A DNA stretch of 64,000 nucleotides from positions 1-64,000 of the forward strand of contig NOWV01000163.1 in assembly GCA_003344405.1 (NCBI GenBank), given 5' to 3'. The notes under the pieces are model-generated. The model saw only the letters and a program-made list of their open reading frames with translations, was not told where the DNA came from and ran no database searches. The DNA comes from Trichoplax sp. H2. Taxonomy: Eukaryota. Both the position numbers and the translations under genes were made by a program. Position 1 is the stretch's first letter, and every line of letters begins with the position of its first letter. Positions 1-33,863 of this stretch are shown here, piece after piece.

Positions 1-2718
1 TGCGATATTAAAATAATGGGCTAAAATTTTCTTTGAATTATTCCACATAATAATACAAGTGGCTGAAACGTTAATTTATCATCGTGGTTATTTATAGTAT
101 CGAATTTCATAGCTGTACTGGGTCTACATTTCTCCACACCTTATTCTATTTGGATAATTTTATCTAATACTGGAAAAAAAATTGTAACGATTGCATTGCT
201 TCCAGATCGAATGGAAAATGTTTACTTGGTTTTGACATAATAGTTTAAATGATAACGTAGAGGTGACATTAGAAAGGCTTTCTAATAGTACATAGGCGAG
301 AATTTATTGCAACTACATGTTAAGTGGCAAGTAATGATGATCGAAGTAATAGATTTATGATAACACGATATAAGAGAGAAATCAATCTTTTTAGAATAGA
401 CTTGAAAATAATATGACTTAGGCTATCAACTTTTATTTGAGTTAGCAAATGGTCACCTCAATTTTCGATAGATCTAGAATTGGAATGAGGGAATCAAAAT
501 GTTGCTTAGTTAAACTTTTTGGGGTATATGTATGTAAAATTATTAATTTCTGCTCCTTATGTTTCTGTCTTCAATATCCATAATCAAATTGGCGATACAA
601 TATGAGTTATCTAATCACAGTGCCTGTGTGATTGTTGTAACTCTTAACATGGTTGATTTTTCTTTCAACAAGAATTAACTAATTGGTAGTTTGTATTATC
701 TGCAGCAAAGGCAATAATAAGGAATAGCCATCCATCGCCATTGATGAGTCTGCTTTAAGTATAGAAACCAAATAAGAGCGTTATCTTGGATAACTATTCG
801 TAGTTATCTATCGAGTAATCAACTAACGTGTCAACAAGTAAGTTATAGCATTATGTTAGACCTTGATCCGCATCGAAAGGGGCTTAACAGTAGCGAAGAA
901 CTTAGCCTTTATTGTGGTGGTTGTAAATTAGGCAATAATCTTGTTTAATCAACGGTCTTTAAGATTACTTTGCTCCACTTGAGGCACATTCAATAATCTA
1001 CAACACAATTTTTTCATACTATAAAATCATCATTATTCTGTATCGATAGTTTAACAAATCGAGCGAACTTTACGATTACACTAATAGCGATTGGCAATCG
1101 ACTTGTTTATTTTTTATGACGTTTCTGCATCAATATCGCCTTAAAATAATGCCTAATTAAGAGACTGTTTCTCTTGTAGATTGTGAGATATCGACTGATT
1201 GTGATTTTTATGAGATGGTTGTTGCTACTATTCATCATTAAAAAAGAACGCGATAGCAACCATAGATTAAAAGAGATTTAGGATAGAGCTAGTTAAATTA
1301 ATCTCCCGTTATAGATTTGGGTAGAAAATATAACCCTACTATTCTATCTATCTCATAATTAAATCATATGTTGGAATAATTTAATAGGATATCAATCCAC
1401 AACGTCAAATTATGATGTTGGAAGTCTTTAAAGTTATTTATTCGACTGGAAGGAGCCTAATGATAATATTGATCAAGATGATGTGTTCTCCTCAATCGCA
1501 AATCGCATTGAAAATGCAGATCATTTAAAGATATTTGCTTTGCAAGCGTAATTCTCGTCATTACAAGCTAATAATAATAGCTAAGATTCACCAACAATGT
1601 CCTATTAATACATCAAATTACACACAACGTTGTCCACAAGGAAGTTTTACAGTCTCATCGACGTTGAATAAATCATAATACTATTGGATCTGTAGGACAG
1701 GTGATGTAATATAAAATCGATGCCTATTTGTGAATATCAGACTTACAGCAGCTTAAACTATCCCATTGCTATAGCTGATTTTACATCTAATATTGAGATC
1801 TATTGATAGCGTACTGCATCATGGCAAAATACCGTGATATTAACTGCCATCATTTATGTTCTAAAAATAATTTCCTTCTGGTGTGCTTGTTACATTATTA
1901 AAGCTATCTTCATGCATCTATCTCGTTTGTCCGTTAGGCCAGAAAACAGTAAGCTTGCACTCTTTACCTATTTTGCCTTACTATTCGACTAGCCACGTCG
2001 CATTCACGTTGTAACCTCAAATGGTTATCTTCTTCATGCTAGCTCAATAAAGATTACTGTTCAATATTTATTTCTCTAGTCATTTATTGCAATTATGAAA
2101 GACCTTCAATCTCCCGAAACATCAACATTGTCGTTATAGTTTTAATGCGAATTTTAGTCCATATACGCGTAAGTTACAGTTTACAGCTTCAAAAAAATTA
2201 GTTCGCCAATCTAGCTTTTACGCCTTTAATGATAATATGTTTAACACTGTAATTGCGGTTCTTAAACTTTCTATGGGCGCAAATTAGCGAGAAGAAAACA
2301 ATTTTTGAACTTTTGACTTAGATTAGTTAATAATTTCATGTATGCGGTAATAAATATCTAAGGCAATTATTTTGATGATCAGATACTATAGCAGAAGAAA
2401 GTCGTAGAAAAAAAATGTAATTTCTTGTAACGATTAAACAGATTATGAATCATATCGACCGAGTTAAAAGATTAATAAGATTGCTTAGCTATCAAATGAG
2501 TTTATTTAAGTTGATATGCGAATATTTGTAAATGCATAACATTAATGATAGTTGCGGGGGTATTTCAGTCATCAGAGTATTAAACTGATCATAGAGACCA
2601 TGGAGAAACCTCATGCATAATTTGTGTGCATTTTCGTGTTATTAATTCGCTAACAGATAAACTAAGATGCGATTTGGCTATGTCAGACTGAATATGAATT
2701 ATGCCCCAAAACAAAGTA

Positions 2719-5700
2719 CTAATTTGCTAAATGTTCAATCAACCGATTCCACGAGTTGTTGTCATCCGCTCTTAAGTCTTCGATAACTTCGTGACCTGCA
2801 TTGATCAAAAATTGAATAGCATTCTCCGAATTATCATCAAAGCGAATAAAATATTCTAACTAATATTGCCAACGGCTGTAATGAGATCCCATAATAGAAT
2901 GTAGTTCATCGTCCACGTTATTTTGTTGAGCTTCGAGTACGTGATGTAGTTTAGCTGCCCAAAACAGTGCACCTTGATTTGATTGCGGTCTAAGGATACT
3001 ATTTACGGCATCGCCAGTTCCTAGAGACCATAAGTAAATGTTTTCTCGTTTAATACCTTGGTCGAGAGCATGTTTATATGCATATCCAGCTGGATTGTTG
3101 GCATGAACTCCACCGTCAATAAATACATGCTCTAATTTTTGCGTAGAATTAGTTTTGGTATTGTGCCTCTGATCTATTATAATCCGATGTGGAGGAAAGT
3201 AAGTAGGCGCTGCACTCGTTGCTAAAGCGACGTCTAATATCTTAAAATTCTTTCGCGGATCTTTGAGGGCCTCACAACGTGTAAAGTAAGTAGTGACAAG
3301 TAGTTGATTTTGATTGCAAGCTGGTATAGCAACATCGGTTAAAAGTTGAGATAATGTAGTATCATTGAAATATTGGCTTAGTACATTTTTTAAGCGTTTA
3401 TCGCGATATTTGTGGCTGGCAAATCCAAGCCACGGCATAGCCCCTTTGTGAAATATTTCAGATGATTTATCTTTATATAAAGATAAAATGTCAGCAGCTC
3501 GATATTTTGGCTTACAGCTGTTTTCAGCTTCGGGAGTGGTAAGACCAAGTGAGATAATACCTCCTGTTGATGTTCCAGATATTAAATTAAAGTTGTAGCT
3601 AATAGGTCGGTGTGTACAGCGTTCTACTTCCGATAAAACAACTGCAGGAATAATTCCACGAATCCCACCTCCATCGATACTTAAGATATTATAAGAACTG
3701 GAGGAAGTAGAGCTCTGCCGCTGTAGGTAAGTCGTCGAGTTATAATCAAGTTGTGTTGCGTCGTATTGAAATTGACGTTGCTGATTGGAACTACGCTTAG
3801 TACACTTTTGAATTCTCGATCGTTCTTTCATAAAGATTTCATTATTGCAGTCTAATTTTAAAGCTTTATTAATTGCTGTAGCTGCCTTATCATAATCTTG
3901 AATGCCCCGCTGTGCCTTGGCACAATAATACCAAAACTGCGGTTGAGCACATAACTTTAGATTTGCAGATTTCCTATCTCTTCCAGACAGAAATCGGATT
4001 GCAGCACGATTTCGATTGCGTGCTAAAAAACATTCAGCAATACGCCAACAAGCAACCGAAGTAGGGAATAAACTTAGTGATTTAGTGTAATATTGTTTAG
4101 CCTCTTTATATTTTATCAATCGGCGTACTAAGCTTGCGGCGTCTGTTTTATTTGCCTCTAACATAAAGTGATCACCTATTTGTCTTAAAATCTCAGCAGA
4201 AATTATTTTGTTATTCTTAGCCGAATTCAACTTATTGTGTAATGTCTTTAAGGTAAGATTATTGTTATGCAGAAAAACGAATTTCGGCACTCCGTTTTCT
4301 AGATAATCTGATTCTACCCCTAGGCAGATAGTTGCTTTTGACACGTGGAGTGTCGGTAGTTGATGTTCCGGTAGCATTTTAACGAAAATCGATTCTGAAT
4401 TTCGTATCTTAATGACATATAGTTGAAACTGAATTTTTGTTAATTTGGATACAATTTCTAGATAAGAATATTTCGAAATACCTTCATCCAGTAGTTCATC
4501 TTCATATTTTTCCAAGAATTCTTCGGCAATAGGAGAAGATTCGGCTTGTAACTTTTTTAGGAAGTCGACTCGCGATAAAGTAAATAAGCCATCCGATAAA
4601 ATATTCAACATATTCAGCATATCCTCTGTATGACCTAGATCTGTAACGTAAGAATAAATAATCTTTTCTCCGTCTATTTCATTGATAGTGATAGTTGGCT
4701 TATAGGCTATTGGCGCTAAATTTTGAGTAGTAGTTTTTATCTTTAGAGCTGCTGCAGGATCAAAACCTAGCGCTGATAGGAAATCTTCAACCGAAGCTAG
4801 ACGATATTCGGTTATGCTAAAGAATTGAAAATTCTGAGAGGTAACACTATACATTTCTATCAGTTGTTTTTTAGCAACATTTAAGTGATCATCTCGACCG
4901 GTGATCACCTGCACTAGGGCAAAGTTTAATCTAGCTACCAATATTATTTTTTGCAAGCGACTAACAAAAGGTGATTCTTTAGCATCATTCAGCTTTTCTT
5001 CAGAACCTCCATCAGCAGATATGACAAACAAGCAGTTTATTACTTGTTTTGCCAATATCTGGAGATCAATTATGAGCATTTTACCGACTTCATTGTCTAA
5101 ATCTTCAGCAGCATCTCTTAATTGGTCACTGTTTTTAAAGACACTCTCAAAAATTTTACACGCTTCCACTTCTAATGTAGAAGCTGGATACTCGGAAAGG
5201 GTAACTTTACCACTCATTAAAGTTTCTCCTATGATGACAAGTAGATAGGCAATGCCATCAGGGCGAAAATTATGATACAATAGATCCTTAATCATCTTTT
5301 CGGGCGAAATTTTAATCAATCTTCCCTTGTCATAATGTATAAGGCGATTACCTGTTTCTTTCCTTTCATCATAATTTTGCGATAATTTTTCAAGGAATTG
5401 CTCGTATTCATCGCAATTATATGCTTTTATTGCGTCTGCAATTAAGTTATTTAAATTTTCACGAATTTTCGGTTCTCGTAATAACTCCACTCCTTTTCGA
5501 TAAATTTTATGACCCATAAACATGCCTATGCCCCCTGAAAAAATACCTCCTAATACACCAATCGCTATCCCCAATGGACCAAATGCACTTCCAAGAACAG
5601 CCCCAGTTTTTGCAAACGCTACTATGTTGGCGCAAGCCAGTCCGGTACTACTTACAGCTACAACGCCTCCTGTTGCAGTTGCTAACGCACCTTTTGTACG

Positions 5701-7383
5701 AAGACTTATAGCATCAATTCTAGCTTTTGTGATATCTTCGTTTGGGCTAGAATAAGATACTAATTTTGTTTGAGGGATCGCTAATTCATTTCGAACCAGT
5801 TCAGCGATATCTTGACGAACGATGTTTTGCCGCCGCTGTCGTCCTGCATAAGTAGAGATCGCAGGCAATTTCGCATTGCCTACTGCTAATGATTGGCTGT
5901 TGCGATGAACAGAAATTGTCTGACAATGAATTGGTGGCCTAATTTGAGGATCATTTTCACTTTCTGATGTAACCTCTGGTTCGGGGGGAGTATTTCCTTT
6001 ATTTTGCGATTTAACCTTAGCTAATATGTCACGAATTTCCATAAATTGTGAATCAGTAGCGTCCTGACATTCCAACAAGACACGTAATGCACCAATAGCA
6101 TACAATTGCGACTCCAATGGATACTCTGCGGCACGCAAAGCCGTAGAGATGCATTTTCTTAATTCAACTTGTTGATGCTGATAACTATTGAACTTGGGTA
6201 AATCACTGTTTTGAGAAGCTAAGGTATCTATAATCTTACAAGCAGCTCGATATTGCTGATAGCACAACTCAGCATATTTTTTTTTAATAAGAAGGTGTTC
6301 CTCTGGTGTTTTATTGATATAATCTTCACGCTTTAAAACTCTTAAGCGATCCAATTTATCTTTACCAACATTTTGCCAATCAACGACTATCGTTAAATAT
6401 TCTTCTGCTTTTTTTTTATGGTAATCAGCAGCACACTCTGGTTCAGCGGAACCGACTAATCGTTCCAGTCGCTCTAAAGCGATTTGCTTCTGTTCCATTA
6501 ATATCTGAAAAAATTTTTTGAAAACATCGTTATTTGGACTTTGCGGGAATCGATCAGGATGAAATTGGGAGAATAAGCGAAAGCGCTGATTGATATTTTT
6601 CTCTGTTAATTCCACATCGCTAAAGAAACTATCTCGTAACGCTGCCTCATCACTGAGGCATAACTCAACTACTTGGGCAGCTCTGTAATCTAGTAATCCT
6701 TCCATATTTTCACGAATAGCTTGTTCTCCTTTTACTGCTTTTGATAAGCGCTTCAACTCTTCTTCTAATTTATTTTGTTGCGAAGCATTTTAATCAGTTG
6801 AAGCAAGTTCTTCCTTTGCAACGTTGATATTTTCAACCAATTCTACTTTGAATTCATTCAGAGCCTTTAACACACTGTAATAATTTTTTCGTACGTCAAG
6901 AAACTTTTGTAATGTCGGAAAAGGGCTCTTTATTGATTCTATAAAATTTTTCAGTAGCTGATACAATTCATCACTGATATAAGATTGTAACTTGCTCAAC
7001 ACTTCGAGAAGAGTTTTAGTATCACTAGGATGCTTGATGACTTCGAATGTTTCCGTATTGCAAGATTGTATTTCACTTTCCAAATCCCGTAACTCATGCT
7101 CAAACTTTTGAAGATATTTAGTGCTTACTGATTTTTCATGTTCGACATTATTGTCTCTGTTGTAATGTTGGAGAAGGCTTACCTTCATAGAATGATATTT
7201 CATACGATAGTAATAAAGAGTAAGGTCGTCTCTCCCTTCAAGCTCATCTATATCAGCTTTAAGACGAGCCAATTGTTTCTTCAACTCTTCTTCGTTATTT
7301 ATTCCATCACAGATTCTACCATTAATTTCTTGTAATTTAAAATCCAAGGTCTGATTTGTAAAGCTTTCTTGAAAGTAAGTCAT
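2719..7383 (-). CDS. Intronless multidomain patatin-like phospholipase (helical N-terminus, J-domain-like HPD, glycine zipper, TPRs, patatin), ~1554 codons, interrupted by in-frame TAA (6790-6792) and TAG (2860-2862); recent pseudogene or recoded/split gene
   Basis: ORFs 6790..7383 and 2860..6756 share one frame (…ELASTD*NASQQNKLEEELKRLSK…). The frame continues past the TAG for 46 codons (LEYFIRFDDNSENAIQFLINAGHEVIEDLRADDNNSWNRLIEHLAN*) to TAG at 2719-2721. Patatin motifs DGGGIRG (~3675-3655), GTSTG (3576-3562), SAAPTYF and DGG (3117-3109) are intact. FHPDRF is at ~6553-6561, the Gly-rich hydrophobic stretch at ~5505-5700, and TPR-like helices at ~3840-4200. Confidence 0.85.
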
Positions 7384-8279
7384 GATGATTCTACTGTTTC
7401 TTTCTGAAACAATTGTATTTAAGAAAGTGTATTAAGTTTTAATCGATGGTAATATTGTATTACTCAAACTGTAGGAGTTGCCGAAGTTTTACTAATGAAG
7501 TCAATTAGCTTATTAAGTAACTGGCACTCTGGGACAGCAACAATAGCATAAATGTGTGGGTTACTTTTATAACTACTATTACTTAAGAGAAATAACTGCC
7601 ACTTAACGGCATTATGATAACCACAGTAATCGAAATGGTTTACAATTCTTAATAAAAATACCTTCAGCAGCGATAAGATGGAAGATTATCTTTTCTTCTT
7701 AATAACTATGAATATTCAGTTTTGGGATTACTTTAAGGTTTTACAGCTACGGTAGTAATTTCTTTTTATTCGGTATTTTAGCGTTATAGCTGATCTTTGA
7801 AATTTATCTTTCGACGGAGAGCCTTTGAAGTGCTCCTAAATGAAATAAAATCCTGTCTTGTTTTATTTATTTTCGAAGCTTTGGTAAGGTCAATTACAGA
7901 GGTTACCGTACTTCCTGGTTTTGATGTTTCGATTCAAACAATGATCCTTAACACGCCTTCTGAGATGATTTGCATAGCAGCGGTCATTTTAATTTATACA
8001 ATGCTGAACGATAGAATCACTGCTGTGACTAATTCAAAGGAACGGAAAGTTAATTTTAGCCACAAAACTATTTCCCGAAAGTAAGGAGTAAAACAAATAG
8101 GGTTTATGACATCATCAATTTGGGAGTTACTTTCCAATTTTGTTTGGTTTCTAGTTGAAGTGATAAGATCCCAAGATGCTTTGTACACTATTCTTCAGTG
8201 ATACTTTTAGTTAGGGTAATTAATACTACGGCTAATTAACTTAACTTAACTAGATCTTCTGATCGAGCCAAGTGCTGTT

Positions 8280-8572
8280 CAAGAAAGGTTTTGATACTTC
8301 TTAAGAAGCGGTTGATGCCTATCGGCGTCACCATTTTAGCTACAACGTTAGAATAAGGTTTTCATTCTAAAATAATATTCCATTCGATAATAATAATTTA
8401 ATTCGCGGGTTCATTCTAAATCATCTGTGCCTGATCTGAACTCTTTCAACTACCAATTCAATTTACTTTCGTTGAATAGTTCTGCTATCAAGTTATCATC
8501 AATCATGATTAACTTATCCTGTAATACGGGGATTTTGTAGTGTTTTGGCGGTAGATAATCAAGCGATATCAT
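8280..8572 (-). pseudogene. Degenerate fragment homologous to the first ~95 aa of the patatin protein
   Basis: Manual translation from ATG at 8572 gives …LQDKLIMIDDNLIAELFNESKLNW*LKEFRSGTDDLE*TRELNYYYRMEYYFRMKTLF*…, which aligns with copy A LDFKLQEINGRICDGINNEEELKKQLARLKADIDELEGRDDLTLYYYRMKYHSMKVSLL. Confidence 0.7.
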
Positions 8573-8746
8573 TCTTTTTAATACTTTGGAAATCAATAAA
8601 CTATCCTAGATAGATAAACAAACGAGCATTTAAAGAGTAAATTAGCGTGTTCGGGAGATTTAAGCGTTTACATAAGATGGCATATAGTTTCATCTGGCGA
8701 TGATATTTCCGTATGAATTAAAAATAAAACCTTGAAATAGACCAGA

Positions 8747-11253
8747 ATGGTATCTATGTCTGGTGCCTTCATCAAAAAAGAATCATACAAAAATCTCACT
8801 CAATTCTTAAAACATTTAAATGATCCTTTGAAATCATTCTCAGAGATGATCGATGTAAGGAGCAAATTTTGTTCTATAAGGCTAATTTTAGATGATATTC
8901 GATCAAATTGAATAGAGAATATTCAACTAATAAGAACCAGTCTGCACAAACTGAACAACTTCTAAAAGATGTGGAAGAATTTCGTATGAATTTAGATTAT
9001 TTAGTAGACATGAGAATTATACGTGTAGCTGAATTAAGTTTAAAAGATGAGACAGCGCTACAAAGAAATTTCTTCCATGATATTGAGTTAACCCAAGAAA
9101 GTATTAATAAAATATTTGACATATATGCACGTTTCGTCCACCCTGATAAATTTAATGCTTATCTCAGGTATCATGATGTCGTCAATACAGTGATGCAACT
9201 ATTAAATCGAGAGAAATAGTCGGTTTACAACATGTGAGTATACAGTTAGCTATCCATGAACGGATTGAAATGCATAAGAGTCAAGGAGATAAATATCTAC
9301 AACGTCTCATTGAATGGCAAAATGTGGTTAAAGATCAATTCCAACGCCTAAGAGTGTTAAAGCCTGAAGATTACAAAGGTACGGATAAAGAACAAATTTA
9401 CAAGCAAAAATAATATTATGCAGATAAGGCCTATCAGGAATATCGATCTGTGGGCCGGCTAATCGATGAATTAGCGGTTGAAAATATCAATTTATCGCAT
9501 ACTGATTGCATGTGTTGAAAGCACGAACAAGTTAATATTCGAAAAAATAGCAATAGTTTCGCGTGTCGCAGAGGACTTTCTCGGGTCGTAGTTGTACGCC
9601 ATTGGTGTCCTTCGTATCGTAACCTACTGCTTTCACAAGTATGAAATAGTGGATAAGGAGATTCAAGAAATTGAAAAGATTCTGTCTACAGTTCAATCCA
9701 AGTGTAAAGAAAATAATTCTCAACCGCATAGCGAACTACCCATCGCCACTCAAGTCATTACAAAAATACTATCAGCGGAGATTCTACGACAATTTTCCCA
9801 ACACCACTGTGTAATAGCCAGAAATACAACAGTTGGAAGCTTAACTCGCCGACTTTTACACTATAATGAGTCCAAACGTTACTACATTAAATCGTTAAGC
9901 TTGTATCCTACACTTGCAGCATGCTGGAGCATTACGGAGTGCGATTTAATCTGTAGTCGAAACAAAGCGGCAATAGATTTTCTAACGTATCGTTGCCTGA
10001 GGCCTGAAATCTAAAATTATCGTCGGAACCCCAGTTATGGTATTATTTAGCAAGGGCTTATCGAGGCCTGCAGCAGTTTGATGTTGCAGCTAAAGTGATT
10101 AATAAGGCTTTAAGTTTAGACCCATGTAATAAGGCTTTCAATAAAGAAAAATCGAGACTTATAAATATACAAAAAGTGGCCTAAATAAAAAGCGCCTATC
10201 GCAGCATGATATTTCCCAGCTTGACAAGGTAATTTATTGAAGACGCCTGGACTTATCTTCAACCAGTGCCTATAGTATCTTTAAGTATTGATGGTGGAGG
10301 TATTCGAGGAATTATTCCGGTAGTTGTTTTAAGCGAAGTGGAACTATGTACGCATCGACCCATCAGTCATATCTTTAATTTAATATCCGCGACATCAACA
10401 GGAGACATTATCGCACCCGGTCTTACCATTCCTAAATGTCGTTGGAATTGTAACCCGAAATATCAAGCCGCTGATATTTTATCGTTATATAGAGACGAAT
10501 TGCATGATATATTTCGTAAAAGACCAGCATTGCATATACTTTTCAACTTTAAAAGTCATAACTATAGTGGTACACGTTTAAAAGATAAATTCGATTCCTA
10601 TTTCGGTGATATTAAGTTATCTGAACCTTTAGTCGATGTTGATATACCAGCCTACAATTAAACAGAACTAGTCTTGACAATTTATTTTACACGTAGCGAG
10701 GACTTAAAGAGATCCACTAAAGAATTTTAGAGTATTAGATGTCTCCTTAGCAACCACCGCCGCTCCTACCTATTTTACTTCGCATAGATCGATCAAGAAT
10801 ATGGAAACGAAGCTTACGAATATGATGCGAAACCATCAAAAGTCTTCATAGATGGCAAAGTTCATGCTAATAATCCGGCTGGTTATTGCTATAAATATGC
10901 TCTTGATCAAGGTATTAAGAAAGAAAATATCTACATGTCGTCATTGGGAACAGGCGATTGTGTTGATGGTATTCTTTGGCCGAAAAAAACACCAAGGTAA
11001 ATTATTTTGGGCAGCGAACTGGCATCATGTACTCAATGCTCAGCAAACAACATAGGTGATCAACTTTTATTCCGTTATGGGATATTGTTGTAGTCGTTGG
11101 CAATATTGATTGGAGAATCCTGTCCAATTAGATGATATATCTGATGATAGTATCAATTTTTTGATCAAGGCTGGTCAGGAACTTATCGAAGATTTAAGAT
11201 CCGATGATAATAATTCGTAGAATCGAATGATTGAACATTTAACTAAATCTTAA
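8747..11253 (+). pseudogene. Decayed paralog (copy B) of the J-domain/TPR/patatin gene, with frameshifts, stops and a large internal deletion
   Basis: Colinear fragments: MVSMSGAFIKKESYKNLTQF…DVRSKF (8747-), FVHPDKF, ILSAEILRQ, YYIKSLSLYPT, SIDGGGIRGIIP, ISATSTGD (damaged GxSxG), AAPTYF, IDGKVHANNPAGY and RWQY*LENPVQLDD…EHLTKS* ending at TAA 11251-11253. Confidence 0.9.
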
Positions 11254-13439
11254 TTAAGTTTATCATAGCACTATACAGACATGATTACTTTGTAACAACA
11301 GCTTCGTCCCTTAATCAATTGAGCTGCCAGCAAGTCTAGTATCATAGTATTAAAATATAGTTTACAATATAGAGAGGAATTGCAAGGAAGTTGGCAGCTC
11401 AGTTCTTACTCTTTATGCGAGAAAGAATAAATCTGAGATAGCCCGGTACAATGGCAAATAGGAAAATCGTGTTTCATTAATTTCTAATACCAAAGTGACT
11501 TCAACTGTTAACTTTAGTAATAAAATACGTTATCTTTTTATAATAGTTAATCATAAAAAGAAGTATATTATTACGGGAAATTCATTTAACTATTAGGATT
11601 TGTTCAGCAACCAATGCAAGAAATGATAATTTTACTCAGATATATTGGCAAGATTATCTTTAGACTTTAATATCGATCCATCGCCTCTACTCTACCAACT
11701 TGGCTTTAAGATGCTAAATCATTGAAAAATTTTCTAAATCATCGTTTACAAATTTATTAACATCTTACTCCGGTATTAAATATGAATACCATTAGGTAGA
11801 AACCTAGGAAGCTTTTAGTTATTGCTCCATTTTGTCAATAATGCCGCAAACTAAATAGAATCCTAAATTTAAAGCCATTATTGCTATCTTGCAATTGGGT
11901 GATTCATATACCCCATTGCAAATGATTTTTTATAGTTAGAAGCCACAATTTTTGCATTGATAATAATATTGCTATACTCGTATAATACTTTCGTATACTT
12001 TCTTAGTAGCTTGACTTGCATTACATTCAATCTAGCTTACATAGTGTTGTAGTCAAGCCATAAATTGTTATTTCTGAGTGGTATCAGCTCAAAAGTAATT
12101 AAATTTGTCGATCCAATTTTGCGATTCTATGATGGCTTTGCTAGAATTTAGTTAATTAAATCAAGGAATTTTACGAGTTATACTATTGAAATGCTTGCAG
12201 AATAAAGTGGGTATACTATCATACATGTTTTAAGGAAGTAACAATACTAGTTTCATACTCATCTTTCGATTGCGTAGTTTAGTTGAGGAATCATTCGATC
12301 ATCTTTAATGTGTGCTTACTGTAGCAATCGCTAGCAAACAATTTGAAATAAGTCGATTCTCGAGCATCATTCAGGCAGCATCCGCAGACGCCATCTTAAC
12401 CAATTTTTGATAAGAATAAACAATTGTGTCAATTGTTTTGGCATGATTATCTTAGACTTTAATATCAAAATATTTATGATTTTCCCAATTTTAGAATTTA
12501 TAGGTTATTGGTTAGATTACCGCAGAGGGCTGTACTCTATGCTTGTATAGTAAAATCTTGCATTTAACGTCTATGATGATATCTTTGGATAATTATGTTT
12601 ACATTGGCCTAAACGAACAATGCTGTGTGATCCTTAGATTGATTTGCTGTTGGAATTAAGCCTAACCAATTATATACTATGCTGCAGTTATGACATAACA
12701 GACAACAAAAATACACTCACGTTACTACTAACGGAGCACGCTAACAGGTTTATTGTTCATTTCTTTCCAATACATTGTGTTAGACACAATTTAAATATAA
12801 TATGGAAAACCGAATCAATTCCAAATAGAATCGCACAATTAATTCTTTTGAATTTAAATGAAAATTACAGCCAGAACGATATTTAACTAAAAATAATTAT
12901 TAGGAATATGAAATGTTATTAGTATTTAATTACAATTATATGAGTAAAGGTTCATAGAGTCATGCAGCTTACCGGTCAATCACACAAAATGATGAAAAGA
13001 TTACTACATTGACAAACATCTATTGATTCTAATATAAGCCGTTTGTAAGAATAACGTCGCCTAAAACGACATTTTGTACTCTAATGCCATATTTCGAATC
13101 AAAGATATCTGTATTCATTAAGGAATTATTATGAGAAAACAGATAGGCATAGAATTTATAGAGCAACCATAGCGATTCATTCTAGTCTGTCTATTTATCA
13201 TTCAATTTTAAGTTAAGACAACGCTATTGCGAAAGCATCACTAATACGCTCTTAGCGCTAGTTTTAGCTTGCATTATCTTCAGAAAATTGTTATATTAAA
13301 TTATCACAAGAAAGCAGCTATTTCTCTTCAGTTGTACATTATTCACTATATCTTTGTCTAAAAGTGCTGTAGCACTAAGGTAAATTAAAATTGTATCATA
13401 AATCTTTTTTAATTCTTACTTTTAATATTATTACATATT

Positions 13440-16400
13440 TTAATGAAACTGGATGGCTCCTGGATCTTGGTCAGTTGATGCAGCAATATGCCTTAAAATA
13501 TCCTTCTTAGTAATAAGACCCATTACACGCCTAAGGCAATAAGATGATATAGATCGTAATAGGTACATAGCTCAAAATAATACATTCAATCTAATACACC
13601 TACCCCTTGTGAATAACTAGAACTTTGCGTGTACCCAACATACGAAATATATCCAACACAGTATCAAAAGATGTCTCCAGGGTAACCTGTAGCGGAGTCT
13701 TCAATAAAGTTATTGGGACAATTAAAAGTCTCAATAATTTCGAAATTGCTTAATCTTCTAATTAAAGAACGGTATACTTTATCCGATAACATACCAGATC
13801 AACAATTTCTTTAAGCAGTAGTGGAGATGGATCATGTTGCGCAGGTATTTTATCGGAAAAGTACACTTTAGATTCTACGGTTATATTACTATTCGTTTCT
13901 AAGGCAAAATCTGTATTTGAAGTTAAGCATGGACAACCATCAGTAAAATTTCATCATTAATTGTAACAACGTACATATAGCATTACCGAGACGATGTTTC
14001 AAATCTTTCCTAGTAATAAAACCGATCAATTGTTGTGATTCGCTTGAATAAACAAGTGGATATCCTTGATAGGGGCATTCCTGCATTAATTCAACTGCAG
14101 ACAATATCCCGTATACAGATAAAGGTTAGTTTGTATTTCTTTCGGTTTTGAAATTGATAATTCAACTCAATTACTAACGCAATGATCCAACAGTGTTTCC
14201 ATTGTAATTGATAGTCACAAGTATAGTGGGTTTACTGCGAAAATAAGATATTAAAGGGTTTAGTTCTCTGCTTTTTACAAAATCGAAGTGATAAAGAATC
14301 TTGCCAAAGTAATGTACCGTGGCTGCATAATCTCCGAAGCATTGGCAGTGAATTTAACTTCTTCTTTGCTATCTAAGAACGGATATCCATTCAATCGAAT
14401 GTGGCCGTCGTAGCTGTATAGAAGTTAAAGTTTCTTGTTTGTGTTGAATATGTAAGCTTTAAATAAACACACTAAAACTATGCAAATGCTATTGATAGGA
14501 TACATTCCTCCCTCGACGAAAGCATCGCCAACCCATTTACTAGTCATTACAGCAAACATAATCGGAACAATATACTGCAAGCCGCCGGTCAATTCAAACA
14601 TTATGACCACCAATGATACTAGTTTGCAATATCAATAGAATCATCTTCAATGTTTTGAAACTGTTCAAAAATTATCCTACTCAACCTACAGTATATTCTA
14701 CTCCATACTCATAGAACAAAAAAAGTTTAAGGTTATACCTGTCATCTTAGTAACGCCACCTAGAGTTGCTGCAGCTCCAACCATTGAATAAAGGCCAGGT
14801 TGAACGCAAACACGGCCAGGATGACACGCCAATTTGAAAAAGAAAGTATCAGGATTGTAGCTATTGAGAAATATTAAATCAACTTTAAGAATATCTCAAT
14901 CATTGTAAGGTGCTTAGAAACATTCAATACAGTTCTGTTAAGGTCATCTGCTTTAAGAAATTGACACTTACTAGTACCATTGTTCCATTGCCACTCCCAA
15001 TATGCGACCAAAGCAAGCACCAACAGCCATGCTGGGAATAAATAATCCAGCAGGTATCTACAGTACGTTAACAATATTATATCATTTTATTACAATCAGG
15101 CTTCGCCAAAAGATGATTGCTATTGGTTGTACCTTAATACCAAAGGTAAAAATAGTGACGAAAGCTTTTAATAGCATGGCAAGAGCCAGTAACCATAATG
15201 ATCGTAAGACTTGCGGTCCAGCAGGAAGAGTAGGAAAGTTTGCTCTATCATTTGTGTTAATGACATAGGTCCCATTATTGATGTAATTGCTGTCGATTAA
15301 TAGGTGTAGGTACATAAGAATTGCTCAGTAATCTGGCATAGCTAATCTTGTGAAGATAGTACAGTATAATGAATGCAGCATTTGTAAACTAACCATAAAG
15401 GAGTCGAATCCGATTGATCGCACTGCTGAAATAGGTGACGTATCAAGCTGCTGGTATTTTCTCTAATTTATTCCAAAGTATGGTGGTCAAATAAGCGATT
15501 ATTACATTTTAAAATATGATTCAGTAAATTATCTTTAGCAATCGCTACTTACTTTGTATAAGGATTTAAATAGCTTAAAAGCGCAGTAACAACCGTGACA
15601 ACCACAACCTTGATGACAGGATAAGGCCATTAGCAAAGTTGTATGATAAACTGAAGGTAAAGAGTTATTGTAAATTCACAGAAATCGTATGTAGTATAAA
15701 CCTCTGCAACTGGAAAGCGTTTCAGTGCACTATTTTTGCGAAAGTTAGACCACATAATATTAAATTTAATAAAAAATGCGCCATATAAGCCCTAGGCCAT
15801 TAAATCAATTGGGGTTGTAATTAAATAGGTTAGTTTATAGAAATAGCGGCACGAAATTGACGAAACAAAATAAGCACATATACCCCAAATATTCCCAAAA
15901 CGATGAAAGGAATTAGTTCAAATAAATGCCACACCATATCGTAGCTGACTTCAAACCTAACAAGGTGGCCATTACCGTAAGGATTTATATAACTTAGAAC
16001 TATAGCTGCCATTAATGCAGAAAAGAATGAACGCCACATTGTTTTCAGGGGGAAGTAGTAGCTAACCTATGGTACATAGCAAATAAATTGCAGATAAGAC
16101 TAGAATAGCCAATTTAAATAGAGCGTCCCTATAAGAAGATATAATTTTTCACGAGTACTTTTCACAGTACTTCTATAACGTGATTATTTATGTAACAAGG
16201 CTTACAGGTTATGAATAGTTTAAGGAATAAAATTTATGTACTACCTCTTCAAGACTAAAAAGTATCCCCCCAATTGGGGCTCCAAAAGCAACAGAAACTC
16301 CAGCAGCAGCAGCAGCAGATAATATCTAGGTTGAAAGTTTAGTTTCAATACAGAAGTGCGTTGTATATTGCCAATTAACATTATAAGATACAAATGGGCC

Positions 16401-18804
16401 CGAGTAGAACACTGTTAACATAACATCTCTATTTATCGCTTAGGCATTACTATAGCTGTCAAGTTCGAAAGATATAGCTGCTAATGTACATGTAATGCTT
16501 TACCTCTCGCTTTTTTACTTCATTTTGACGGTATTTTGGAAATAGACGACAAAGCATGTTGCCGCAGCAGCTTGCAACATGTACCAGTGGACCTTCTTTA
16601 CCAAGGCTTAGTCCTGCGGACACAACCATCATCATAGTTAACGATTTGATCAACAGTACCCATTTACCGAGGTAACTCCTAATGACAAAACCACTAAGTA
16701 TGGTTTTTATCTGCAAAATGGATTAATTAAAGAAACGAATGCATAAGAATAAATGATTTCCAACTTACAGGCTATTATTTTACTGTCACAACTATATTGA
16801 CACAAAACAGTGCTAAGCAGGACTAATATGTAGCAGCAATATAGTCAATAAAGAAATAACTTTATAGTATATGAAAAAAGTCAAAAAGTAAATCTTCCGT
16901 TAACCTCGGGTATTCCACTACCACATGCGTATGGAGCTAAATCGCGAACAAGTACAGCAGCAAGAAAGCCAAGCAAGAATGAAACCAATACATAGACAAA
17001 ATATTCAAATGCAAATATGGAAGCCGAAGAGGACATGATGCCAAATATTTGAGACCAACTCAACCATTCTGGACAGTCATTATCTGCAGTAGTGAGATTA
17101 GACGACCAACAACATGCTTTCTTATTTAACCAAAACCGTTGCGGACAAACGCCTGTATTAATAATCAATGATAATATTCGCTCAATTTAATCAAAGCGTA
17201 ACATGGATTGAGTGTTACTTCCTTCCTTATTGCTTGGCAGTTAAATAAGTGCAATATCAACAGCAACACCCTTAAATACCAGGGTATTTACTTGTTCTCA
17301 TCAGCATACTCACCTAATCGCAAATCTGTCATCCATTCGGTTCCAATATCGATTAATCCTGCACATAAGCCAGATAATATACCAACACCACTAACAATTA
17401 GCCAGCCTAGTGATTATGTATGAACCATGTCAACATTTCAGTTAAACAGATTAGATAAGCTGTAATACTTTTTTTACAGCGAAAACCTGTCAATATCTAA
17501 TTATACTACTCATAGCCCCTCTGCCCATATTCAAATTTTGTTCATTCTATATAAACTGGTTGTTGCTATGAATATGAATCCATTTATCTTTGAATTTGAA
17601 TTGCTATGACAAAGTAAAGCAATTGTTTCCATCAAATCAGCATTCATATTATGATCAATGATGCAGAAACTTTCTATTGCCTTTTAACATCTACTAAAGC
17701 CTATTGGTTAGCTTTGTTGGTACTGCGATGTATCGAAAGTTACAGAATTACTTTTTATCTAGTACGAATGATGGTTATTGTAAGATAAGAGTAGTAAAGT
17801 ACTGTGTTGTATCAGGTTGTATCGCAATATCATCACCATTGGTCATGCAAGAGTCTATTTTGCTACGAACGTATTCCAGGTTATTTCATAGTTTTACGTC
17901 AAACCTCGTATATCAATAGGCAAAAACAGTCTATCTATTCGCAGTAATAGATGAACATGTTGGCAATGGCAAGAGATAACATAGTAATAGGAGTTTTACT
18001 GCGATGCATTTCAGTGTCCTCGATACCATAAGTTGTCAGGGGCCAATATTGCCAATGATTTATTTCGAAGTTCATATGACTAGCTAGCTTTATTTGTAAG
18101 ATTACGTTTACGACTATTTATCGGCTTTATTAGTCAAGTTACGATGAATAGAACAGCTTATTGCTACTCAGTACGATCGTTGTCGTAGGATAAGAGTGAA
18201 GATCAAGTTGTATCTCAGCATAATCTCTACAGTTTGACGTACTGATATCGGCTGAATTGCACTTAAACATATGATGATAAATTGCACAGACAATTAGAAT
18301 TTACTGAGATAACTTAGCGGATCGATCAATCAATGATGAATGAGAGACGTTATTTTATCCGTAGTGCAATCAAGAAGAACCCGTACTCGTACAACAGCAA
18401 CATCACCCAATAAGTTATTGTAACCTACCAGACCAGGCATCATGACTGGAAACAATCCAGTTCCACCATCCTTTCTTTTCATCGAATTTGAGAGATCGAT
18501 GGCGCTTAAGATACCTCGTCCTATCACGAACCCAATCAATGGTCGTAAAATCGTCGTATTCCTTTCGATTAAAACGATGATAATGTTCATAGGGATCAAT
18601 ATGAGCGCCACTATGACGATTGATAGCCCGATTGGTGTCTAGTATTTCTTCATCGTCTTGCATCATCTGACCAGTTTGGTTACCACTCCCATTGTGTTGT
18701 CTTGAATCCTCTTGATCGGATTGACGGCTTAATATTAAATCATCGTCATCTTGCAGGCGGTTATCGCTGTCATCGATAATCAATAACTGAGTATCATTCT
18801 CCAT
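13440..18804 (-). CDS. CLCN3: CLC-family Cl-/H+ exchanger, ClC-3/4/5 subfamily, multi-exon, with C-terminal CBS domains
   Basis: Exons contain [46 protein letters not shown] (gating Glu), LFSLEE, GLFIP, MFELTGG, GYPFLD and [14 protein letters not shown] at 18804; exon 1 ends at 18429; last exon ends …PGAIQFH* (TAA 13440-13442). Sequence alone cannot separate ClC-3, -4 and -5; this is likely a co-ortholog. Confidence 0.95.
14414..14503 (-). other. Probable U12-type (minor spliceosome) GT-AG intron in the CLC gene
   Basis: The 5' splice site is GTATCCTA, and a branch-like CTTTAAC (14430-14424) ends about 10 nt before the AG. Removing the intron restores [15 protein letters not shown]. Confidence 0.75.
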
Positions 18805-33202: not shown

Positions 33203-33863
33203 ACTATTTTAGTCTAGGTAAATGAATCTGAGAATGATTCCTCTATCAGTCTACACCTTAATTTACTGACAGTAAAATTAATGAAATTTTGTACTGTTGA
33301 ATACTTGTAGACATATACCTCACCGACCGAGGATAATTACTGTAATTCCGTATTAAATCATGTCANNNNNNNNNNNNNNNNNNNNAATATTCACAAGTGT
33401 ACCATCGGCGAGACTATAAAAAGCGGAGCACTAGCTTAGCTTCTCAGTTCCAGTTAGTCATTTGCAGGATCTTGTGACTATTATTGCTAAGAATATTCTT
33501 ACGTTTTTCTTTAGTACATTTTACGACTAATGTTAACGAAAATAAAGTAAAGTATTTAAACCTATTACTCAATAGTAGTTTTTGTGTAGCTGAGAGTTAG
33601 TTCAACTACGATAGGTCCCTAAGTTAGTTGGGAACACAAGTACTAGTGAAGATAGTGTTTAAGACCCGGTTTCTTGTTACAAAGAAGAAGATTTGCAACA
33701 ACTATTTTAGTCTAGGTAAATGAATCTGAGAATGATTCCTCTATCAGTCTACACCTTAATTTACTGACAGTAAAATTAATGAAATTTTATACTGTTGAAT
33801 ACTTGTAGACATATACCTCACCGACCGAAGATAATTACTGTAATTCCGTATTAAATCATGTCA
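33203..33863. repeat. ~163-bp direct repeat on either side of a 20-N assembly gap (33366-33385)
   Basis: 33203-33365 is nearly identical to 33701-33863, and the first copy ends exactly at the Ns. Confidence 0.9.

What the first reader, a model, noticed from the sequence alone, without database searches (positions are those of the whole stretch)
2719..2862. Both paralogs have a stop at the same codon of the patatin tail, but different stops (TAG vs TGA)
Seen: copy A reads CGT TGG CAA TAT TAG TTA GAA (TAG 2860-2862) and copy B reads CGT TGG CAA TAT TGA TTG GAG (TGA 11107-11109). Both continue in frame with strongly conserved protein sequence (FLINAGHEVIEDLRADDNNSWNRLIEHL vs FLIKAGQELIEDLRSDDNNS*NRMIEHL), with many synonymous differences. 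TAG and TGA are each one G-to-A change from TGG, so the ancestral codon was probably Trp and was hit twice independently. Established: A-to-I editing converts UAG or UGA to Trp codons and rescues premature stops in filamentous fungi. Inference: either a safety-lock stop corrected by editing or readthrough, repeated selection to disarm a toxic lipase, or coincidence at a stop-prone Trp codon. A second TGG-to-TAG in copy B (11218-11220) shows coincidence is plausible.
Basis: partly seen in the sequence, partly recalled or inferred. Interest (0 to 1): 0.8.

Follow-up and report, generated by a model that had tools for sequence, protein, structure and literature searches.

The report
One-allele stop in placozoan patatin gene
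The shared stop position is real, but it is an ordinary nonsense variant on one of two versions of a Trichoplax phospholipase gene that happens to coincide with one of many stops in an old dead copy next door, not a stop that is corrected at the RNA level.

Summary
Copy A (minus strand) has TAG at 2860-2862. Copy B (plus strand) has TGA at 11107-11109, at the homologous codon.

The window is placozoan, not fungal. Copy A's translation matches a Trichoplax sp. H2 protein at 1302 of 1302 residues. The T. adhaerens orthologue and 25 of 45 family members have Trp at this position, so the ancestral codon was TGG and was hit twice independently.

Copy B is a long-dead pseudogene with at least 7 stops, several frameshifts and about 650 codons missing. 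Two of its 9 Trp positions are now stops. A chance coincidence with one of copy A's two nonsense codons has odds of roughly 5-10%.

In a DNA run of the window's own organism label, position 2861 reads both T (stop) and C (Trp), 42 of 114 depth units being C. The C is linked to three nearby letters that reproduce the T. adhaerens allele. The stop therefore sits on one of two versions, and a TGG version coexists.

Published surveys report that placozoans lack ADAR and A-to-I editing. The public H2 gene models hide both copies' stops inside predicted introns.

This is ordinary allele-specific decay. Interest is low.

The parts
2860..2862 (-). Premature TAG in copy A at the conserved Trp codon (codon 1508, counted from the ATG at 7383). 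It is polymorphic in DNA: plus-strand T (stop) and C (Trp) are both read at 2861.
   Evidence: for the sequence. In one search, X1 reads C at 42.3 of 113.7 depth units, while X3 (172.1/172.1) and X10 (32.7/32.7) read only C. P0002 has W here.
2719..2859 (-). The 46 tail codons after the TAG, plus the normal terminal TAG at 2719-2721. This is the conserved C-terminal part of the patatin fold (LE.PI.LDD...IE.L.ADD.N..N.LIE.L).
   Evidence: Family alignments place the nearly invariant D309, E328, E329 and E343 downstream of the stop. The family profile aligns through this tail to plant patatin 1oxw residues 17-345 of 373.
2863..6789 (-). Main open frame of copy A, a TPR plus patatin-like phospholipase. 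The ORF listing gives 1298 aa from TTG at 6756. There are no introns.
   Evidence: Pfam Patatin scores 93.2 bits against a cut-off of 27.7, and TPR_2 scores 27.4. It is identical to P0003 at 1302 of 1302 aligned residues.
6790..6792 (-). A second in-frame stop, TAA, in the window version of copy A. T. adhaerens P0002 has Gln here (ASTD*NAS against ASTDQNAS). It splits off the 197-aa upstream frame.
6793..7383 (-). N-terminal 197 codons of copy A. They are continuous with the main frame in the T. adhaerens protein.
   Evidence: X3 contig 23 spans 6065-7411 without a joint.
2796..2873 (-). A 78-nt in-frame GT...AG segment that the public H2 gene model P0003 removes as an intron. This hides the TAG and deletes WQY*LEYFIRFDDNSENAIQFLINAG.
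   Evidence: One search shows the 26-residue gap. One search shows the segment is 78 nt, runs GTTGGC...ATGCAG, and that the join gives HYSRHEVIED. No joints were found in any of the 4 runs laid (table 5).
5538..5543 (-). An A6 run (T-run in coding sense) inside copy A. One X1 contig carries an extra A here, a +1 frameshift. Its phase relative to the TAG is unknown.
   Evidence: table 4: 33.5 of 71.5 depth units in X1, 0 of 190.1 in X3 and 0 of 32.7 in X10. Sequence.
8747..11253 (+). Copy B, a decayed paralogue lying head-to-head with copy A. It has at least 7 stops, several frameshifts, no counterpart of copy A codons 411-1058, and damaged catalytic motifs (SATSTGD, DGK).
   Evidence: The public model P0128 (528 aa) is stitched over the breaks; only two segments (residues 37-87 and 506-528) passed my 97% filter.
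11107..11109 (+). TGA in copy B at the codon homologous to copy A's TAG.
11218..11220 (+). TAG in copy B where copy A has TGG (SWNR).

Best explanation
Copy A is an intronless TPR plus patatin-like phospholipase gene in the nuclear genome of Trichoplax sp. H2. The assembled version carries a simple TGG-to-TAG nonsense mutation, and also a CAA-to-TAA further upstream. The same DNA sample also holds a second version that reads TGG and matches the T. adhaerens allele. The stop is therefore an allele-specific loss-of-function variant in a highly heterozygous, clonally propagating animal. It is not a stop that has to be corrected. Copy B is an old paralogue (dS about 1) that was once under purifying selection and has since decayed into a pseudogene. 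Its TGA at the same codon is one of many lesions and coincides by chance, because TGG is a stop-prone codon: either of its two G-to-A transitions gives a stop. Shown here: both stops, the ancestral Trp, both letters in DNA, and the decay of copy B. Inferred: that the two forms are alleles of one locus, that the truncated product is inactive, and that the coincidence is chance.
For: (1) Organism and orthologues. The window's translation is identical to Trichoplax sp. H2 P0003 at 1302 of 1302 aligned residues, and T. adhaerens P0002 reads ...SRWQYWLEYPIRFDD....
(2) Ancestral state. W occupies the column in 25 of 45 homologues, and also in the closer relative P0122, which reads RWQFWMES.
(3) DNA polymorphism. 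In run X1 (the window's organism label, best holder with 0.75 of words), 2861 reads T and C, with C at 42.3 of 113.7 depth units. The C lies on one contig together with 2817C, 2849G and 2850G. These four letters give exactly the T. adhaerens residues V, P and W. At all 40 listed variable places, X1's alternative letter equals the letter read by organism B's runs X3 and X10.
(4) Copy B is dead. It has 7 stops on the best path over 736 aligned codons, 11 apparent frame switches of which at least 5 are robust, codons 411-1058 absent, and 2 of 9 Trp positions now stops.
(5) Past constraint explains the conserved tail. A-versus-B dN/dS is 0.219 in the tail and 0.220 in the patatin domain, with dS of 0.95-1.3.
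(6) Published context (PMC6057997, sections 5-10 read). [quoted passage not shown]
(7) No need for editing and no means for it.
Against: All runs were Logan contigs, not raw reads, so allele fractions are rough and rare variants are dropped. In X1 the two bubble branches sum to 113.7, while flanking contigs have 54-61 and the copy B region 27-36. A recent two-locus duplication or a mixed sample cannot be excluded as the source of the two forms. One X1 contig carries a +1 frameshift at 5537 of unknown phase, so the TGG version in organism A may not be intact along its length. No transcript of the TAG version was seen, so its fate (decay, truncated protein, rescue) is untested. A coincidence of 5-10% is not large, so a local mutational hotspot cannot be ruled out. 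Whether organism B's copy B has the same TGA was not seen directly. Its contig differs from the window at 4 of 1907 positions, but the table was truncated.
Confidence: 0.85

Rival explanations
1. The UAG is converted to UGG by A-to-I RNA editing, so the full-length lipase is made only when editing is active.
For: TAG differs from TGG by one A-to-G change. A contig of X23 (organism A label, guessed RNA) reads C at 2861.
Against: The C is already present in DNA run X1 on a T. adhaerens-like haplotype. The X23 contig has 3 other letters and its first 4 letters did not align just at 2849-2850, which would fit that haplotype (my inference, not shown). Published surveys found no ADAR and no A-to-G editing signal in T. 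adhaerens, described as a secondary loss in Placozoa (passages of PMC9989829 and PMC4323055). There is no stable RNA duplex around the site: z = +0.40, and 124 of 200 shuffles fold at least as well.
Confidence: 0.02
2. The ribosome reads through the TAG, or TAG/TGA are recoded in this organism, so the tail is still translated.
For: The tail frame stays open for 46 codons to the normal stop.
Against: The normal terminator of the same gene is also TAG. Reading TAG or TGA as sense does not open long frames elsewhere in the 64 kb. An open tail is expected for a young mutation. Downstream of the stop, the window version has changed the Pro that most of the homologues aligned carry into Phe by two C-to-T changes, which looks like relaxed constraint. 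The TAG TTA context matches no readthrough motif I can recall; this is recalled, not tested.
Confidence: 0.03
3. The 78-nt GT...AG segment 2796-2873 is a real intron, as in the public H2 model P0003, and removes the stop from the mRNA (intronization).
For: The boundaries are canonical, the length is a multiple of three, and the public model was made by an evidence-based pipeline.
Against: No joint was seen in any of 4 runs (table 5). X3 and X23 contigs run straight through the 5' boundary, although both carry the TGG letter. T. adhaerens reads the segment as coding. The segment encodes the conserved RWQ.W.E.PI.LDD motif. The same annotation also stitches the dead copy B together (P0128), so stop-skipping introns look like a predictor habit here.
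Confidence: 0.05
4. The TAG is an assembly or sequencing error.
For: The assembly is an unphased consensus (PMC6057997). At 3370, 3405 and 3627 the only X1 contig differs from the window.
Against: About 71 of 114 depth units in X1 read the window's T at 2861, on a branch that also carries the window's letters at 2817, 2849 and 2850.
Confidence: 0.02
5. Repeated selection to disarm a harmful lipase: both copies were inactivated adaptively at a favoured position.
For: The same codon is hit in both copies. The gene evolves fast between the two versions: 169 of 1553 residues differ, and 28 of 40 listed nucleotide differences are non-synonymous.
Against: A stop 46 codons from the end, downstream of all catalytic motifs, is a poor way to disarm an enzyme. 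Copy B has many other lesions. T. adhaerens and a coexisting version keep TGG. There is no population data.
Confidence: 0.04
6. The two forms in X1 are not alleles. They are two near-identical loci from a recent segmental duplication collapsed in the assembly, or a mixture of two strains in the sample.
For: Branch depths in the bubbles sum to about twice the depth of the neighbouring copy B region.
Against: The alternative contigs rejoin the same flanks repeatedly across about 5 kb. Organism B has one contig through 2409-9523. The published pattern of one shared allele per locus fits. Multiallelic sites were reported as negligible.
Confidence: 0.1

Closest known systems
Allele-specific premature stop masked by a complete second allele in Trichoplax (the BMP7-related gene described in PMC6057997, section 11 passage)
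   Same: A single substitution creates a premature stop that cuts off the C-terminal part of a conserved domain on one version, while the other version is complete. It occurs in the same pair of lineages, which share one allele at most loci.
   Different: Here the stop is in the H2 assembly rather than the H1 transcript. The stop-bearing version has a second nonsense codon. The intactness of the other version in H2 is not shown over its full length, because of the +A at 5537. Expression of the alleles was not measured.
Patatin-like phospholipases: plant patatin Pat17 (PDB 1oxw) and bacterial cGAMP-activated CapV-type patatins (9wn1, 9kh6, 8zr9)
   Same: The Pfam Patatin domain is present. The DGGGIRG, GTSTG and DGG motifs are visible in the sequence. 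The family profile aligns to 1oxw residues 17-345, including the Y.R.Q ... LDD tail.
   Different: About 1000 residues lie upstream, with TPR repeats and no other Pfam family. The nearest non-placozoan relatives are only about 40% identical, in intracellular-bacterium MAGs, bdelloid rotifers and Glomeromycotina. No enzymatic test exists.
Stop-loss A-to-I editing of premature-stop genes in filamentous fungi, and ADAR recoding in animals
   Same: A UAG one A-to-G step away from a Trp codon.
   Different: The organism is a placozoan reported to lack ADAR and editing. The G is present in DNA. There is no RNA duplex.
Decayed duplicate pseudogene with stop-skipping predicted introns in automated annotation
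   Same: Copy B has many stops and frameshifts, yet is annotated as 'Patatin-like protein 5' (P0128). Copy A's model P0003 also jumps its stop.
   Different: Nothing unusual. This is the standard case.

Membership tests
Patatin-like phospholipase (Pfam PF01734) | Domain match above the curated cut-off | tested here: met
   93.2 bits against a cut-off of 27.7, E = 3.1e-26, residues 1025-1226 of P0001.
Patatin-like phospholipase (Pfam PF01734) | Ser-Asp dyad motifs: the G-x-S-x-G nucleophile elbow, the Gly-rich oxyanion loop and the D-G-G/A Asp motif (motif definitions recalled) | tested here: met
   SIDGGGIRG, GTSTGG and FIDGGVHANNP are read directly in copy A. S65, D216 and G31-33 are invariant in alignment A1. 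In copy B these motifs are damaged: SATSTGD and DGK.
Patatin-like phospholipase (Pfam PF01734) | Complete C-terminal part of the fold (Y.R.Q ... LDD ... helices) | tested here: not met
   In the window version this part is cut by TAG 2860-2862. The family profile aligns this part to 1oxw up to residue 345 of 373. It is intact in T. adhaerens P0002.
RNA-editing-rescued premature stop | An editing enzyme and transcriptome-wide A-to-G signal in the organism | tested here: not met
   Literature only. T. adhaerens was the only metazoan without an A-to-G signal, and the machinery is described as secondarily lost (PMC9989829 passages). ADAR was not found (PMC4323055 passage). I did not search the genome myself, because no genome is held.
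RNA-editing-rescued premature stop | G in RNA where DNA of the same individual has only A | tested here: not met
   DNA run X1 already holds both letters at 2861. Contigs only were available, and no raw RNA reads.
RNA-editing-rescued premature stop | Double-stranded RNA around the site (for ADAR-type editing) | tested here: not met
   MFE -27.9 kcal/mol against a shuffle mean of -29.4, z = +0.40. The TAG lies in an unpaired stretch.
Heterozygous nonsense allele masked by a second allele | Both letters in the DNA of one sample, each linked to neighbouring variants | tested here: met
   2817, 2849, 2850 and 2861 lie together on one alternative contig, 42.3 of 113.7 depth units.
Heterozygous nonsense allele masked by a second allele | The second allele is intact along its whole length | tested here: inconclusive
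   The T. adhaerens protein is uninterrupted. But one X1 contig has a +1 insertion at 5537 of unknown phase, and the state at 6792 in X1 was not listed.
Pseudogene (copy B) | Multiple independent disabling lesions | tested here: met
   7 stops on the best path, at least 5 frame changes, about 650 codons missing.

The most novel reading that the evidence does not exclude
The stop-bearing version of copy A is rescued at the RNA level by splicing out the 78-nt GT...AG segment 2796-2873, as the public H2 gene model implies. That would be a fresh case of intronization of coding sequence around a new nonsense mutation. My evidence does not exclude this, because no transcript carrying the window-type letters was seen at all.
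Probability: 0.05. Interest if true: 0.55.

Novelty: new member of a known kind. Interest (0 to 1): 0.2.

Why it matters
The main value is as a correction. What looked like a candidate for stop-codon rescue by editing is a one-allele nonsense variant next to an old pseudogene, in an animal reported to lack the editing machinery.

Three smaller points follow:
- It adds a second concrete example to the published picture of Trichoplax lineages carrying disabled alleles beside working ones.
- It shows that two public H2 gene models, 'Patatin-like protein 2' and 'Patatin-like protein 5', contain introns that appear to exist only to skip stops.
- It flags an intronless, fast-diverging TPR-patatin family in a placozoan whose nearest relatives are in intracellular bacteria, rotifers and arbuscular mycorrhizal fungi.

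Tried and rejected
- Alternative genetic code. Counting open frames with each stop read as sense gave no sign of recoding outside this gene.
- Own-genome search. No genome is held for this window.
- Earlier findings of the scan.
- RNA evidence. No RNA holder is listed for the window's organism. The three runs on record as RNA hold next to none of the words. X3 and X23 are only guessed to be RNA. No transcript with the window-type letters at 2817-2861 was seen. The uneven depth of X3 (172 over copy A, about 10 over copy B's 3' half, none over 8420-9322) is at most a weak hint of expression in organism B.
- Joints. None in any of 4 runs.
- Structure prediction of the patatin domain, to place the tail in the fold. 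The tool accepted no jobs. I retried after the stated twenty calls and then dropped the step. A profile search against solved structures was used instead.
- Pfam on the N-terminal 1100 residues. Nothing above threshold. A possible J-domain-like HPD motif (FSQFHPDRF) is only my eye.
- Donor of a possible horizontal transfer. In a FastTree of 61 patatin domains (chosen from 120 hits by coverage of at least 250 residues, first 60 kept, P0003 left out), the Trichoplax pair sits on a long branch beside a mixed clade of bacteria, rotifers and fungi. A scan of bacterial genomes gave only 30-39% identity. The donor is unresolved.
- Literature. Searches 'Trichoplax + patatin' (12 papers) and passages of PMC3641634 and PMC3688537 mention patatins of the rickettsial endosymbiont. 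The passages I saw do not mention this nuclear gene or its stop. The term '62223' is not in the main text of PMC3641634. Supplements were closed and may list it.
- Polarising allele differences. Using copy B and P0122 by eye, both versions carry derived changes (A1477T and H1481R look derived in T. adhaerens; W1508*, and P1512F look derived in the window). Decay is therefore not one-sided. I made no formal test.
Full report
WHAT IS IN THE SEQUENCE

On the minus strand, copy A reads CGT TGG CAA TAT TAG TTA GAA, with TAG at 2860-2862. The frame then stays open for 46 more codons to a terminal TAG at 2719-2721.

On the plus strand, copy B reads CGT TGG CAA TAT TGA TTG GAG, with TGA at 11107-11109. 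It has a further TAG at 11218-11220 where copy A has TGG.

The two copies lie head-to-head. Their tails form an inverted repeat, 2714-2900 against 11069-11255, of 187 nt at 74% complementarity.

WHAT ORGANISM AND WHAT GENE

The window is not fungal or bacterial.
- Only 2 open frames of 150 aa or more exist in 64 kb, and there are no tRNAs.
- A neighbouring short frame is an exon-sized piece of a CLC chloride channel. It was the one clear Pfam hit among the 20 frames scanned; a second hit was weak and below its cut-off.
- No prokaryote genome is held for the window.
- Copy A encodes TPR repeats plus a patatin-like phospholipase domain. Pfam Patatin scores 93.2 bits against a cut-off of 27.7.

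Of 142 proteins found with the C-terminal 387 residues, the two best are placozoan:
- T. adhaerens TRIADDRAFT_62223 (P0002, 95% identity over that part).
- Trichoplax sp. H2 'Patatin-like protein 2' (P0003).
- The next best hit is 42% identical.

P0003 is identical to the window's translation at 1302 of 1302 aligned residues. The window is therefore Trichoplax sp. H2 or something indistinguishable from it (taxonomy).

THE ANCESTRAL CODON

T. adhaerens reads ...HYSRWQYWLEYPIRFDD..., so it has Trp at the stop position. In an alignment of 45 homologues the column holds W in 25, F in 5 and other residues or a gap in 15. A closer relative, P0122 (52% identical to copy A), reads RWQFWMES.

THE TAIL IS A REAL, CONSTRAINED PART OF THE ENZYME

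Four nearly invariant family columns (D309, E328, E329, E343 of alignment A1) lie downstream of the stop. A profile of the family aligns through the tail to plant patatin Pat17, 1oxw residues 17-345 of 373. The catalytic motifs SIDGGGIRG, GTSTGG and IDGG all lie upstream of the stop. The truncated product would keep the dyad but lose a conserved part of the fold. I infer that it is impaired, but this is not shown.

COPY B IS LONG DEAD

Against copy A, copy B aligns over 736 codons, of which 373 are identical.
- It has 7 stops on the best reading path.
- It needs repeated frame changes (11 apparent switches, at least 5 of them robust).
- It lacks any counterpart of copy A codons 411-1058.
- Its catalytic motifs are altered to SATSTGD and DGK.

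A-versus-B dS is 0.95-1.6 and dN/dS is 0.22-0.35. The tail (0.219) is no different from the patatin domain (0.220). The duplication is therefore old, and both copies were constrained for most of that time. The 'conserved tail with many synonymous differences' is that legacy. It says nothing about present translation.

The public H2 annotation nevertheless models copy B as a 528-aa protein (P0128). The model jumps the TGA and ends at the TAG of 11218.

HOW SURPRISING IS THE COINCIDENCE?

All 9 Trp codons of copy A align to copy B, and B has stops at 2 of them. Relative to T. adhaerens, the window version of copy A has two nonsense codons: TAG at 2860-2862, and TAA at 6790-6792 where P0002 has Gln. 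Using the codon counts, about 6 of 120 transition-to-stop paths in copy A fall on codons that are stops in B. By my arithmetic that is about 5% per hit, about 10% for two hits, and 2 in 9 once a Trp codon has been hit. This is unremarkable for a feature picked out by eye.

THE DECISIVE RESULT: THE STOP SITS ON ONE OF TWO VERSIONS

I laid four coded runs on 2400-11400. All were contigs, not raw reads.

In X1 (DNA?, organism A, the best holder with 0.75 of the words), position 2861 reads both T and C. C has 42.3 of 113.7 depth units. It lies on one contig that also carries 2817 T>C, 2849 A>G and 2850 A>G. Translated, these four letters give I>V, F>P and stop>W, which are exactly the T. adhaerens residues.

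Runs of organism B read only C: X3 at 172.1 of 172.1 and X10 at 32.7 of 32.7. At all 40 places listed (258 more were not shown), X1's alternative letter equals organism B's letter.

The sample of the window's own organism label therefore holds a window-type version with TAG and a T. adhaerens-type version with TGG.

This fits what is published for these lineages (PMC6057997; I read the abstract, sections 5-10 and 21, and some passages):
- The assemblies are unphased consensus sequences.
- The H2 SNP rate is 1%.
- A BMP7-related gene has a premature stop on one allele and a complete second allele.

CAVEATS ON THAT RESULT

- Contig depths are rough. The bubble branches in X1 sum to about twice the depth of the copy B region, so a collapsed recent duplication or a mixed sample is not excluded.
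- One X1 contig (33.5 of 71.5 depth units) has an extra A in the A6 run 5538-5543. This is a +1 frameshift in copy A that X3 and X10 lack. Its phase is unknown. If it lies on the TGG version, organism A has no intact copy.
- The state of 6792 in X1 was not listed.
- Organism B's copy B was not read letter by letter. Its contig differs from the window at 4 of 1907 positions over 9494-11400.

THE TWO VERSIONS ARE VERY DIVERGENT

X10's contig differs from the window at 265 letters plus 20 gaps over 2409-9523, about 3.7%. By contrast, a mean dS of 0.024 is reported genome-wide. P0002 differs from the window's translation at 169 of 1553 aligned residues, mostly in codons 500-1200. Of the 40 listed differences, 28 fall in non-synonymous codon changes and 12 are synonymous. 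That is close to what unconstrained change would give. By eye, both versions carry derived states. Downstream of the stop, the window version has turned the widely conserved Pro1512 into Phe by two C-to-T changes.

EDITING, READTHROUGH, SPLICING

Editing. Passages of PMC9989829 state that T. adhaerens was the only metazoan examined without an A-to-G editing signal, and that the machinery was secondarily lost in Placozoa. PMC4323055 notes that ADAR has not been found there. The RNA around the TAG is no more structured than shuffles (z = +0.40). The only contig from an organism A run guessed to be RNA (X23, 2851-3039) reads C at 2861. It has 3 other letters, and its first 4 letters did not align just where 2849 and 2850 differ. 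This pattern would fit the T. adhaerens-type haplotype, not editing; that is my inference.

Splicing. The public model P0003 removes a 78-nt GT...AG segment (2796-2873) containing the stop. No joint was seen in any run. T. adhaerens reads the segment as coding, and the segment encodes conserved residues. I therefore regard it as a stop-skipping prediction. However, no transcript of the TAG version was seen, so splicing is not excluded.

FAMILY CONTEXT

The nearest solved structures are patatins: CapV-type cGAMP-activated phospholipases and plant Pat17. Outside placozoans the closest proteins are about 40% identical. They come from Amoebophilus, Rickettsiaceae and other MAGs, bdelloid rotifers, a nematode and Glomeromycotina. 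A quick tree leaves the Trichoplax pair on a long branch beside that mixed clade. Bacterial genomes give 30-39% identity. A bacterial origin is plausible for an intronless gene of this kind, but no donor can be named.

VERDICT

The feature is real but ordinary. It is a one-allele nonsense mutation in a fast-evolving, possibly dispensable gene of a heterozygous clonal animal. It coincides by chance with one of many lesions in an old neighbouring pseudogene.

Noticed in passing
window 6790-6792 (-): A second in-frame stop (TAA) in the window version of copy A, where the T. adhaerens protein has Gln. It splits off a 197-aa N-terminal frame. The public H2 model starts downstream of it.
   Followed up: partly
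window 5538-5543: One contig of DNA run X1 carries an extra A in this A6 run, a +1 frameshift inside copy A that is absent from organism B's runs. Its phase relative to the TAG is unknown.
   Followed up: partly
window 2796-2873 (-) and 8747-11253 (+): The public Trichoplax sp. H2 gene models P0003 and P0128 skip in-frame stops (in copy B also frameshifts) with predicted introns. Copy B, a pseudogene, is annotated as 'Patatin-like protein 5'.
   Followed up: yes
window 2409-9523 versus 9494-11400: There is a sharp change in divergence between the window and organism B's contigs: about 3.7% over copy A and the spacer, but only 4 of 1907 letters over the 3' half of copy B. This looks like a boundary between an unshared and a shared haplotype block.
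   Followed up: no
window 2719-7383 (-): An intronless 1554-codon TPR-patatin gene in an animal genome. Its nearest non-placozoan relatives (about 40% identity) are in intracellular-bacterium MAGs, bdelloid rotifers, a nematode and Glomeromycotina. Horizontal transfer is possible, but the donor is unresolved.
   Followed up: partly
window 5480-5720 (-), copy A codons about 555-630: A glycine-rich hydrophobic stretch (GALATATGGVVAVSSTGLACANIVAFAKTGAVLGSAFGPLGIAIGVLGGIFSGGIGMFMG) that looks membrane-embedded. It is among the most divergent parts between the two versions. Upstream there is a possible J-domain-like HPD motif (FSQFHPDRF). Neither has a Pfam match.
   Followed up: no
window 13400-17200 (-): Exon-sized frames of a CLC chloride channel (Voltage_CLC, E = 8.3e-11, at 16462-16722). 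This is a spliced animal gene next to the patatin pair.
   Followed up: no
window 33366-33385: A run of 20 N, an assembly gap.
   Followed up: no
run X3 on window 4920-5274: A run labelled organism B holds both a T. adhaerens-type contig (depth 135.9, 34 other letters) and a window-type contig (depth 13.5, 1 other letter). The window-type version may therefore also exist in that sample at a tenth of the depth.
   Followed up: no
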